Positions 5,893 to 8,010 of a stretch of DNA of 37,681 bases are shown here, in pieces. The notes beneath the pieces are model-generated. The model worked only from the letters and a program-made list of their open reading frames with translations, was not told where the DNA came from and did not search any database. This DNA is from Escherichia phage T7, in sequence record MZ375246.1. One strand, given 5' to 3'. The position numbers were made by a program, and so were the translations under genes. Each line of letters opens with the position of its first letter. The stretch's first letter is position 1.

Positions 5893-6972
5893 ATGATGAA
5901 CATTAAGACTAACCCGTTTAAAGCCGTGTCTTTCGTAGAGTCTGCCATTAAGAAGGCTCTGGATAACGCTGGGTATCTTATCGCTGAAATCAAGTACGAT
6001 GGTGTACGCGGGAACATCTGCGTAGACAATACTGCTAACAGTTACTGGCTCTCTCGTGTATCTAAAACGATTCCGGCACTGGAGCACTTAAACGGGTTTG
6101 ATGTTCGCTGGAAGCGTCTACTGAACGATGACCGTTGCTTCTACAAAGATGGCTTTATGCTTGATGGGGAACTCATGGTCAAGGGCGTAGACTTTAACAC
6201 AGGGTCCGGCCTACTGCGTACCAAATGGACTGACACGAAGAACCAAGAGTTCCATGAAGAGTTATTCGTTGAACCAATCCGTAAGAAAGATAAAGTTCCC
6301 TTTAAGCTGCACACTGGACACCTTCACATAAAACTGTACGCTATCCTCCCGCTGCACATCGTGGAGTCTGGAGAAGACTGTGATGTCATGACGTTGCTCA
6401 TGCAGGAACACGTTAAGAACATGCTGCCTCTGCTACAGGAATACTTCCCTGAAATCGAATGGCAAGCGGCTGAATCTTACGAGGTCTACGATATGGTAGA
6501 ACTACAGCAACTGTACGAGCAGAAGCGAGCAGAAGGCCATGAGGGTCTCATTGTGAAAGACCCGATGTGTATCTATAAGCGCGGTAAGAAATCTGGCTGG
6601 TGGAAAATGAAACCTGAGAACGAAGCTGACGGTATCATTCAGGGTCTGGTATGGGGTACAAAAGGTCTGGCTAATGAAGGTAAAGTGATTGGTTTTGAGG
6701 TGCTTCTTGAGAGTGGTCGTTTAGTTAACGCCACGAATATCTCTCGCGCCTTAATGGATGAGTTCACTGAGACAGTAAAAGAGGCCACCCTAAGTCAATG
6801 GGGATTCTTTAGCCCATACGGTATTGGCGACAACGATGCTTGTACTATTAACCCTTACGATGGCTGGGCGTGTCAAATTAGCTACATGGAGGAAACACCT
6901 GATGGCTCTTTGCGGCACCCATCGTTCGTAATGTTCCGTGGCACCGAGGACAACCCTCAAGAGAAAATGTAA
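5893..6972 (+). CDS. 1.3: ATP-dependent DNA ligase (gene 1.3)
   Basis: 359-aa ORF MMNIKTNPFKAVSF...; ligase KYDGVRG motif (IKYDGVRGN) present. Confidence 0.98.
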   Translation: MMNIKTNPFKAVSFVESAIKKALDNAGYLIAEIKYDGVRGNICVDNTANSYWLSRVSKTIPALEHLNGFDVRWKRLLNDDRCFYKDGFMLDGELMVKGVDFNTGSGLLRTKWTDTKNQEFHEELFVEPIRKKDKVPFKLHTGHLHIKLYAILPLHIVESGEDCDVMTLLMQEHVKNMLPLLQEYFPEIEWQAAESYEVYDMVELQQLYEQKRAEGHEGLIVKDPMCIYKRGKKSGWWKMKPENEADGIIQGLVWGTKGLANEGKVIGFEVLLESGRLVNATNISRALMDEFTETVKEATLSQWGFFSPYGIGDNDACTINPYDGWACQISYMEETPDGSLRHPSFVMFRGTEDNPQEKM

Positions 6973-6977
6973 TCACA

Positions 6978-7010
6978 CTGGCTCACCTTCGGGTGGGCCT
7001 TTCTGCGTTT
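6978..7010 (+). terminator. TE, intrinsic terminator for host RNA polymerase (end of early region)
   Basis: GC-rich hairpin ggctcaccttcgggtgggcc followed by tttctgcgttt. Confidence 0.8.
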
Positions 7011-7022
7011 ATAAGGAGACAC

Positions 7023-7045
7023 TTTTACGACTCACTAAAGGAGGT
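7023..7045 (+). promoter_or_regulatory. T7 promoter phi1.5, altered at -16/-15 by the upstream deletion junction
   Basis: ttttacgactcactaaaggaggt; consensus TAAT at -17..-14 reads tttt here. Confidence 0.7.
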
Positions 7046-7052
7046 ACACACC

Positions 7053-7142
7053 ATGATGTACTTAATGCCATTACTCATCGTCATTGTAGGATGCCTTGCG
7101 CTCCACTGTAGCGATGATGATATGCCAGATGGTCACGCTTAA
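7053..7142 (+). CDS. 1.5: Gene 1.5 small protein
   Basis: 29-codon ORF MMYLMPLLIVIVGCLALHCSDDDMPDGHA; position matches T7 gene 1.5. Confidence 0.75.
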   Translation: MMYLMPLLIVIVGCLALHCSDDDMPDGHA

Positions 7143-7162
7143 TACGACTCACTAAAGGAGAC
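7140..7162 (+). promoter_or_regulatory. T7 promoter phi1.6
   Basis: taatacgactcactaaaggagac. Confidence 0.85.
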
Positions 7163-7167
7163 ACTAT

Positions 7168-7428
7168 ATGTTTCGACTTCATTACAACAAAAGCGTTAAG
7201 AATTTCACGGTTCGCCGTGCTGACCGTTCAATCGTATGTGCGAGCGAGCGCCGAGCTAAGATACCTCTTATTGGTAACACAGTTCCTTTGGCACCGAGCG
7301 TCCACATCATTATCACCCGTGGTGACTTTGAGAAAGCAATAGACAAGAAACGTCCGGTTCTTAGTGTGGCAGTGACCCGCTTCCCGTTCGTCCGTCTGTT
7401 ACTCAAACGAATCAAGGAGGTGTTCTGA
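7168..7428 (+). CDS. 1.6: Gene 1.6 protein
   Basis: 86-aa [24 protein letters not shown]... Confidence 0.9.
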
Positions 7429-8010
7429 TGGGACTGTTAGATGGTGAAGCCTGGGAAAAAGAAAACCCGCCAGTACAAGCAACTGGGTGTATAGCTTGCT
7501 TAGAGAAAGATGACCGTTATCCACACACCTGTAACAAAGGAGCTAACGATATGACCGAACGTGAACAAGAGATGATCATTAAGTTGATAGACAATAATGA
7601 AGGTCGCCCAGATGATTTGAATGGCTGCGGTATTCTCTGCTCCAATGTCCCTTGCCACCTCTGCCCCGCAAATAACGATCAAAAGATAACCTTAGGTGAA
7701 ATCCGAGCGATGGACCCACGTAAACCACATCTGAATAAACCTGAGGTAACTCCTACAGATGACCAGCCTTCCGCTGAGACAATCGAAGGTGTCACTAAGC
7801 CTTCCCACTACATGCTGTTTGACGACATTGAGGCTATCGAAGTGATTGCTCGTTCAATGACCGTTGAGCAGTTCAAGGGATACTGCTTCGGTAACATCTT
7901 AAAGTACAGACTACGTGCTGGTAAGAAGTCAGAGTTAGCGTACTTAGAGAAAGACCTAGCGAAAGCAGACTTCTATAAAGAACTCTTTGAGAAACATAAG
8001 GATAAATGTT

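What the first reader, a model, noticed from the sequence alone, without database searches (positions are those of the whole stretch)
6973..7052. Apparently exact start-to-stop excision of gene 1.4 that also alters promoter phi1.5
Between the ligase stop and gene 1.5 the window reads ...aaggagacacttt|tacgactcactaaaggaggt. In T7 as I recall it, the gene 1.4 ATG follows ...ACACTTT directly, and its TAA stop forms -17..-15 of phi1.5 (AAC TGG TAA TACGACTC). The junction is therefore consistent with removal of exactly the 156-bp ORF, ATG through TAA. A codon-exact deletion is more typical of engineering than of spontaneous repeat-mediated loss. A side effect is that phi1.5 now reads TTTT instead of TAAT at -17..-14, which should weaken the promoter. 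Gene 1.5 then depends on read-through from phi1.3 across TE. TE itself is retained.
Basis: partly seen in the sequence, partly recalled or inferred. Interest (0 to 1): 0.6.

Follow-up and report, generated by a model that had tools for sequence, protein, structure and literature searches.

The report
Engineered gene 1.4 deletion in T7
The window is a published laboratory mutant of phage T7 in which gene 1.4 was removed exactly from start codon to stop codon by CRISPR-assisted recombination, so the feature is real but man-made and already documented, and its clipping of the phi1.5 promoter is a probably mild design side effect.

Summary
The window lacks exactly T7 bases 7608-7763 (V01146 numbering). 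That is the 156-bp gene 1.4, ATG through TAA. The junction lies at window 7025|7026, its placement is unique, and it has no microhomology.

The window is GenBank MZ375254.1, "Mutant Escherichia phage T7 clone T7_110S". Its naming matches the CiPGr genome-reduction study (Yuan et al., NAR 2022). That study's "cassette-gene" library used Cas9 plus 50-bp homology arms to delete whole genes. The same junction occurs in 63 phage records, and every one listed is a lab T7 mutant.

Natural 1.4-less relatives (13a, Yanou, IME390, YpP-R) have a different junction. In them the TE tail abuts an intact TAATACGACTC.

Because the 1.4 stop codon is -17..-15 of phi1.5, the promoter now reads TTTT at -17..-14 (A>T at -16 and -15). 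Published in-vitro data give about 68% activity for each single change, so a modest weakening is likely. It has not been measured.

TE is retained. The claim that gene 1.5 now "depends" on read-through is overstated, because TE is the terminator for E. coli RNA polymerase and the cited sources list only Tphi for T7 RNA polymerase.

Verdict: real, engineered, already known, low interest.

The parts
5893..6972 (+). Gene 1.3 (DNA ligase), intact. It forms the left context of the deletion.
   Evidence: ORF; annotated as ATP-dependent DNA ligase in MZ375254.1.
6980..7010 (+). Early terminator TE, retained. Hairpin GGCTCACC-TTCG-GGTGGGCC at 6980-6999, tail TTTCTGCGTTT at 7000-7010.
   Evidence: 100% identical to V01146, where TE is annotated at 7588. 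RNA fold -18.3 kcal/mol, z = -3.3.
7012..7025 (+). Orphan ribosome-binding site of the deleted gene 1.4 (TAAGGAG plus spacer ACACTTT). No start codon follows it now.
   Evidence: This block is absent from natural 1.4-less relatives.
7025..7026 (+). Deletion junction. V01146 7608-7763 (gene 1.4, 156 bp, ATG..TAA) is missing between these two bases.
   Evidence: unique placement, 0 microhomology. The 40-nt junction is found in 63 records, and every one listed is a lab T7 mutant.
7023..7045 (+). Promoter phi1.5, -17..+6, now TTTTACGACTCACTAAAGGAGGT with +1 = G at 7040. A>T at -16 (7024) and at -15 (7025). The stretch -14..+6 is unchanged.
   Evidence: The wild type reads TAATACGACTCACTAAAGGAGGT.
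7053..7142 (+). Gene 1.5 (29 aa), intact, with its own RBS.
   Evidence: V01146 7791-7880.
7140..7162 (+). Promoter phi1.6, intact (TAATACGACTCACTAAAGGAGAC), 117 bp downstream of phi1.5.

Best explanation
This is a designed, scarless deletion of the whole gene 1.4 ORF in a laboratory T7 mutant. The clone is T7_110S: a small-plaque isolate from transfer 110 of the CiPGr 'cassette-gene' line.

Inferred mechanism, taken from the published method. Plasmid-borne SpCas9 guides cut inside gene 1.4 of the infecting phage. A 100-bp plasmid template supplied two 50-bp arms, one ending at the base before the ATG and one starting at the base after the TAA. Homologous recombination with this template repaired the break. 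The product has no protospacer, escapes Cas9 and sweeps the population.

Consequences:
- Shown: loss of the 51-aa hydrophobic gp1.4.
- Shown: an orphan 1.4 RBS remains.
- Shown: because the 1.4 stop codon is also -17..-15 of phi1.5, the promoter carries A>T at -16 and -15.
- Inferred: promoter strength is reduced modestly, roughly two-fold if the two effects multiply. Little phenotype is expected, because gene 1.5 and downstream genes are also transcribed from phi1.1A, phi1.1B and phi1.3 through TE, and from phi1.6 117 bp further on.
For: Identity and provenance:
- The window equals MZ375254.1 positions 2-37682 at 100% identity, titled 'Mutant Escherichia phage T7 clone T7_110S'.
- The paper describes cassette-gene designs with 50-bp arms to delete entire genes. 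It describes large and small plaques picked every 10 transfers, 60 sequenced T7 mutants, and names such as T7_300L.

The deletion itself:
- It runs exactly ATG..TAA, has 0 microhomology and leaves no scar.
- Eleven SpCas9 protospacer+NGG sites lie inside gene 1.4.
- The three deletions the authors call undesigned (gp0.3-0.6, gp4.3-4.7, gp19.5) match the window's 564-, 1019- and 189-bp deletions. Those ignore gene borders and carry 1-9 bp of microhomology.
- The junction is shared by 63 records; the 60 listed are MZ3752xx or OL9647xx lab mutants.

Promoter effect:
- Komura et al. 2018, file S2: -16 A>T scored 114.5 and -15 A>T scored 115.7, against a wild-type mean of 169.
- The TTTT form persisted unchanged to transfers 240 and 290.
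- The independently engineered T7-B chassis, judged from its derivative T7-B-J, also clips phi1.5. It has wild-type-size plaques and a burst of 197 versus 224.
Against: - Supplementary Table S10 (accessions) and the cassette sequences are not held, and an accession search of the literature found nothing. The link from record to paper therefore rests on the record title, the naming scheme and the matching genotype.
- The paper says regulatory elements were not targeted, yet this design removes 3 nt of phi1.5. That fits a design drawn from CDS coordinates alone, but I could not verify it.
- The activity of the double -16T/-15T promoter was not found in the stored data.
- phi1.5 was one of only five promoters that evolved in the T7-delta-1 lines and was fixed in all four, which the authors read as strong selection. 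A real fitness cost therefore cannot be excluded.
Confidence: 0.96

Rival explanations
1. A spontaneous deletion (illegitimate recombination or a CRISPR-escape deletion) that happened to coincide with the ORF borders.
For: Undesigned deletions did arise in the same lines, and several are present in this genome.
Against: Both end points hit the first base of the ATG and the last base of the TAA, with 0 microhomology. The undesigned deletions in the same genome ignore gene borders and carry 1-9 bp of microhomology. The library contained a template designed to make a whole-gene deletion.
Confidence: 0.02
2. A natural or ancestral arrangement without gene 1.4, as seen in wild T7 relatives.
For: 13a, Yanou, IME390 and YpP-R natively lack gene 1.4. 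gp1.4 homologues occur in only 46 phage records.
Against: In those phages the TE tail runs straight into an intact promoter (GCGTTTAATACGACTC). The window keeps 13 extra nt of the 1.4 RBS and reads TTTT. The rest of the window is T7 itself, with 9 substitutions against clone T7_10L, and the record is titled as a mutant.
Confidence: 0.005
3. An assembly or sequencing artefact.
For: None specific. The terminal-repeat differences could in principle be assembly-related.
Against: The same junction appears in 63 separately deposited genomes. The flanks are clean and 100% identical to the reference.
Confidence: 0.005

Closest known systems
CiPGr cassette-gene deletions in T7 (Yuan, Shi, Jiang, Ma; Nucleic Acids Res 2022; PMC9825161); GenBank series MZ375233-MZ375294 and OL9647xx
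   Same: It is the same object. The window is clone T7_110S of that series, and the 1.4 junction is identical in 63 records.
   Different: Nothing structural differs. The paper's main text does not mention gp1.4 or the clipping of phi1.5.
Seamless gp1.4 deletion in the T7-A/T7-B chassis phages (SMART method, mBio 2025, PMC12153263), seen here in derivative T7-B-J, PV223883
   Same: An independent engineered removal of 156 bp at gene 1.4 that also damages the upstream end of phi1.5. The phage remains viable with near wild-type plaques.
   Different: It was made by Red-ccdB recombineering with 40-nt arms. The junction is shifted by 1 nt (CACTTTAACGACTC), so -17..-14 reads TTTA rather than TTTT.
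Natural Teseptimaviruses without gene 1.4 (13a NC_011045, Cedecea phage Yanou, IME390, Yersinia phage YpP-R)
   Same: The order ligase - TE - phi1.5 - gene 1.5 - phi1.6 - gene 1.6, with no gene 1.4.
   Different: TE abuts an intact TAATACGACTC. There is no orphan RBS, and these phages lack 169 bp relative to T7 rather than 156.
T7 class II promoters with natural variation in the AT-rich -17..-13 segment (for example phi4.7 CTATT, phi1.1A and phi4c CAAT)
   Same: A functional T7 promoter can carry T at -16 (phi4.7) and non-consensus bases at -17 and -13.
   Different: In correct register no natural T7 promoter has T at -15. The phiOL row is one base out of register, because its annotated start is one base downstream of the aligned +1.

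Membership tests
Designed scarless whole-ORF deletion (CiPGr cassette-gene type) | Deletion end points coincide with the first base of the start codon and the last base of the stop codon of an annotated gene. | tested here: met
   V01146 7608-7763 equals the gene 1.4 CDS.
Designed scarless whole-ORF deletion (CiPGr cassette-gene type) | No foreign scar, and flanks identical to the parent over at least the 50-bp arm length. | tested here: met
   100% identity on both sides.
Designed scarless whole-ORF deletion (CiPGr cassette-gene type) | SpCas9 protospacers present in the removed segment, as needed for counter-selection. | tested here: met
   11 sites of 20 nt plus NGG lie inside gene 1.4.
Designed scarless whole-ORF deletion (CiPGr cassette-gene type) | Provenance: the record belongs to the study's deposited mutants. 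| tested here: met
   Record title 'Mutant ... clone T7_110S'. The naming and sampling scheme match the paper. The Table S10 accession list itself is not held.
Designed scarless whole-ORF deletion (CiPGr cassette-gene type) | The synthesized HR template sequence equals the junction. | not testable with these tools
   The supplementary cassette tables are not available.
Spontaneous microhomology-mediated deletion | A short direct repeat at the two end points. | tested here: not met
   0 nt of microhomology, against 1-9 nt at the undesigned deletions in the same genome.
Natural 1.4-less Teseptimavirus arrangement | The TE tail directly abuts an intact phi1.5 (GCGTTTAATACGACTC). | tested here: not met
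   The window has 13 extra nt and TTTT.
T7 RNA polymerase promoter (phi1.5) | 23-bp element -17..+6 with the recognition core (-12..-5) and initiation region intact. | tested here: met
   -14..+6 is identical to wild-type phi1.5.
T7 RNA polymerase promoter (phi1.5) | Consensus AT-rich upstream segment TAATA at -17..-13. | tested here: not met
   It reads TTTTA, with A>T at -16 and -15.
T7 RNA polymerase promoter (phi1.5) | Transcription initiates at +1 (window 7040) at a useful rate. | not testable with these tools
   Only proxy data exist: each single substitution keeps about 68% activity in vitro, and the double variant is absent from the stored data.

The most novel reading that the evidence does not exclude
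A 'whole-gene' deletion design drawn from CDS coordinates may have unintentionally damaged phi1.5. In T7-delta-1 evolution experiments phi1.5 evolved in all four lines, which the authors read as strong selection. If so, part of the fitness loss attributed to gene loss in genome-reduced T7, and the 'non-essential' call for gp1.4, would be confounded by a regulatory lesion. A design copying the natural 1.4-less relatives, with TE abutting an intact TAATACGACTC, would then be fitter.
Probability: 0.12. Interest if true: 0.25.

Novelty: already known. Interest (0 to 1): 0.08.

Why it matters
It matters little for biology. This is a deposited, published engineered phage, and gp1.4 was already treated as dispensable.

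There are two practical points.
- Whole-genome scans will meet synthetic or engineered records, and codon-exact junctions without microhomology are a reliable flag for them.
- In compact phage genomes, ORF-coordinate deletion designs can clip overlapping regulatory elements. Here the 1.4 stop codon is also -17..-15 of phi1.5. Two independent engineering efforts did this at the same locus. Natural 1.4-less relatives show a junction that keeps the promoter intact.

Tried and rejected
- A literature search for the accessions and the clone name found nothing.
- The supplementary tables of the CiPGr paper are not held. The accession link therefore rests on the record title and naming scheme.
- The simple terminator scan did not call TE, because its T-tail is interrupted (TTTCTGCGTTT). 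Identity to the annotated reference and an RNA fold were used instead.
- The exact double promoter variant TTTTACGACTCACTATAGG is not in the stored part of Komura's dataset, so only single-substitution values could be used.
- I looked for compensatory changes at the clipped promoter in later transfers and found none. The one mismatch in T7_240L lies inside gene 1.5, and T7_290S keeps TTTT in a phi1.5/phi1.6 hybrid promoter.
- Loci fetched by accession (L002, L003) were not exported to the script machine. The full-length sister clone T7_10L (L004) served as the reference for the genome-wide comparison.
- The mechanical ORF 6993-7142 (GTG start inside the TE hairpin, in frame with gene 1.5) has no visible RBS and was dismissed as a by-product of ORF listing.

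Full report
**What is in the sequence**

Window 6973-7052 is the spacer between the stop codon of the ligase gene (ORF 5893-6972) and the ATG of gene 1.5 (7053). It reads TAATCACACTGGCTCACCTTCGGGTGGGCCTTTCTGCGTTTATAAGGAGACACTTT|TACGACTCACTAAAGGAGGTACACACC.

A megablast of 6700-7400 against the phage collection hit T7 records at 100% identity. Ordinary T7 records matched in two pieces, and a long run of MZ3752xx records matched in one piece.

Alignment with the T7 reference V01146 shows a single 156-column gap and otherwise perfect identity. V01146 annotates gene 1.4 at 7608-7763, TE at 7588 and the phi1.5 start at 7778. The TAA stop at 7761-7763 is therefore -17..-15 of the promoter.

**Is the deletion really codon-exact?**

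I compared the whole window with the full-length sister clone T7_10L (MZ375233, locus L004) and tested how far each deletion can be slid. The gene 1.4 deletion cannot be moved a single base in either direction. The removed block begins with ATG and ends with TAA, and there is no microhomology.

The same genome carries other deletions:
- 564 bp in the gene 0.4-0.6 region, with 1 bp of microhomology.
- 1019 bp from just past gene 4 into gene 4.7, with 5 bp of microhomology. This removes phi4.3 and phi4.7.
- 189 bp over gene 19.5, with 9 bp of microhomology.

None of these three respects gene borders. A fourth deletion of 292 bp lies inside gene 3.8 and has no microhomology.

**What the window is**

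The first 25 kb of the window match MZ375254.1 positions 2-25001 at 100% in one piece. That record is 37,682 bp and is titled "Mutant Escherichia phage T7 clone T7_110S, complete genome". Sister records are T7_10L, T7_240L and T7_290S.

This naming matches Yuan et al., Nucleic Acids Res 2022 (PMC9825161). [quoted passage not shown]
- 200-bp cassettes carried a spacer and a 100-bp repair template with two 50-bp arms.
- Large and small plaques were picked every 10 transfers, and 60 T7 mutants were sequenced.
- Clones carry names such as T7_300L.

The authors list three undesigned large deletions in T7: gp0.3-0.6, gp4.3-4.7 and gp19.5. These are the three microhomology-bearing deletions I found in the window. 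The gene 1.4 deletion therefore belongs to the designed class. Gene 1.4 contains 11 usable SpCas9 sites.

The accession table (S10) and the cassette sequences are not held, and an accession search found nothing. That last link is therefore inferred from the title, the naming scheme and the genotype.

**How widespread is the junction?**

I searched with a 40-nt probe centred on the junction. Each half is too short to seed a megablast hit on its own. It found 63 records, all labelled Escherichia phage T7, and the 60 listed are all MZ3752xx or OL9647xx lab mutants. The junction first appears at MZ375237 and recurs in most later accessions listed. No environmental phage has it.

**Natural relatives**

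gp1.4 homologues occur in only 46 phage records, and only 5 of them fall in the 60-80% identity band. Several wild Teseptimaviruses align in one piece across the junction: 13a, Cedecea phage Yanou, IME390 and Yersinia phage YpP-R.

Their sequence is GCGTTTAATACGACTCACTAAAGGAGGT. The TE tail runs directly into an intact phi1.5, and in 13a both elements are annotated. Relative to them, T7 carries 169 extra bases, namely the 1.4 RBS plus the ORF.

The window differs from this natural state by 13 retained bases (the orphan RBS TAAGGAGACACTTT) and by TTTT instead of TAAT.

**Effect on phi1.5**

The promoter now reads TTTTACGACTCACTAAAGGAGGT (window 7023-7045, +1 at 7040). The -17 T is preserved by chance. 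Positions -16 and -15 change from A to T, and -14..+6 are untouched.

Among the 17 T7 promoters, -16 is T once (phi4.7). In correct register -15 is always A (phiOL is one base out of register in that table).

In the barcoded in-vitro dataset of Komura et al. 2018 (PMC5937735, file S2):
- -16 A>T scored 114.5.
- -15 A>T scored 115.7.
- Five wild-type replicates averaged 169, so each single change keeps about 68% of activity.
- The class II -2 T>A change scored 161 and 138.

The double variant is not in the stored data. If the two effects multiply, about 45% activity would remain. This is an inference, drawn from a consensus background, in vitro.

From my own knowledge and not tested here: -17..-13 is read in the minor groove by the AT-rich recognition loop. 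A-to-T transversions disturb that groove little.

**Tolerance in vivo**

- The TTTT form is unchanged in T7_240L. In T7_290S it survives in a phi1.5/phi1.6 hybrid promoter formed when gene 1.5 was lost by recombination between the two promoters.
- T7-B-J (PV223883), a derivative of the T7-B chassis built by Red-ccdB recombineering, has a 1.4 deletion shifted by one base (CACTTTAACGACTC; -17..-14 = TTTA).
- T7-B makes wild-type-size plaques and has a burst of 197 against 224.

One piece of evidence points the other way. phi1.5 was fixed for a new sequence in all four T7-delta-1 lines forced to use an altered polymerase. The authors count the promoters that evolved, phi1.5 among them, as transcriptional hubs under the highest selective pressure. 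A small cost therefore cannot be excluded.

**Read-through**

TE is the terminator for E. coli RNA polymerase. The cited sources name only Tphi, after gene 10, as the terminator for T7 RNA polymerase. Transcripts from phi1.1A, phi1.1B and phi1.3 therefore already cross TE and cover gene 1.5 in the wild type, and phi1.6 lies 117 bp downstream. The statement that gene 1.5 now "depends" on read-through is not supported.

**Verdict**

The interpretation as an engineered, codon-exact excision that alters phi1.5 is supported. The functional consequence is probably modest and has not been measured.

The feature is a known, published construct. Novelty: already known. Interest: low.

Noticed in passing
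window 386 (V01146 404): An A>G substitution changes phiOL from TAATACAACTCACTATAAGGAGA to ...TATAGGGAGA. This gives the consensus initiation region and may be an adaptive promoter-up change in the evolved line.
   Followed up: partly
window 3139, 4499, 17522, 17757, 30764, 32018, 32123: Point differences from clone T7_10L: T7 RNA polymerase Q184R (plus silent L637L); gp7.3 T13P and H91R; gp16 H740R, K1158R and A1193V.
   Followed up: partly
window junctions 1322|1323, 12239|12240, 37379|37380: Three deletions that ignore gene borders: 564 bp (genes 0.4-0.6), 1019 bp (end of 4.2 through most of 4.7, removing promoters phi4.3 and phi4.7) and 189 bp (gene 19.5). They carry 1, 5 and 9 bp of microhomology. 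They match the 'undesigned large fragments' reported by the authors.
   Followed up: yes
window junction 10515|10516: A 292-bp deletion inside gene 3.8 with no microhomology. It keeps the first 29 nt and last 45 nt of the ORF, so the RBS and start of gene 4A are spared. It is probably a trimmed design for an overlapping gene. Why 29 nt are kept at the 5' end is unexplained.
   Followed up: partly
window 102|103, 37642|37643 and 563|564: The same 18-bp deletion (GGGTT microhomology) occurs in both terminal repeats. A 1-bp loss occurs in an A-run upstream of gene 0.3.
   Followed up: no
L005 (13a) 365-417; L006, L008, L009: Natural T7 relatives lack gene 1.4, and TE abuts an intact phi1.5. Relative to them, T7's gene 1.4 plus its RBS is a 169-bp extra block. 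gp1.4 homologues are rare, found in 46 phage records.
   Followed up: partly
L007 (PV223883, T7-B-J) around 420-430: An independent engineered 1.4 deletion is offset by 1 nt (CACTTTAACGACTC), changing -16, -15 and -14 of phi1.5. The T7-B chassis still grows almost like the wild type.
   Followed up: yes
L011 (MZ375290, T7_290S) around 520-560: Gene 1.5 was lost by recombination between the near-identical phi1.5 and phi1.6. This left one hybrid promoter that keeps the TTTT upstream end.
   Followed up: partly
window 6993-7142: The mechanical ORF list shows a GTG-start frame beginning inside the TE hairpin and running in frame into gene 1.5. It has no visible RBS and is probably meaningless.
   Followed up: no
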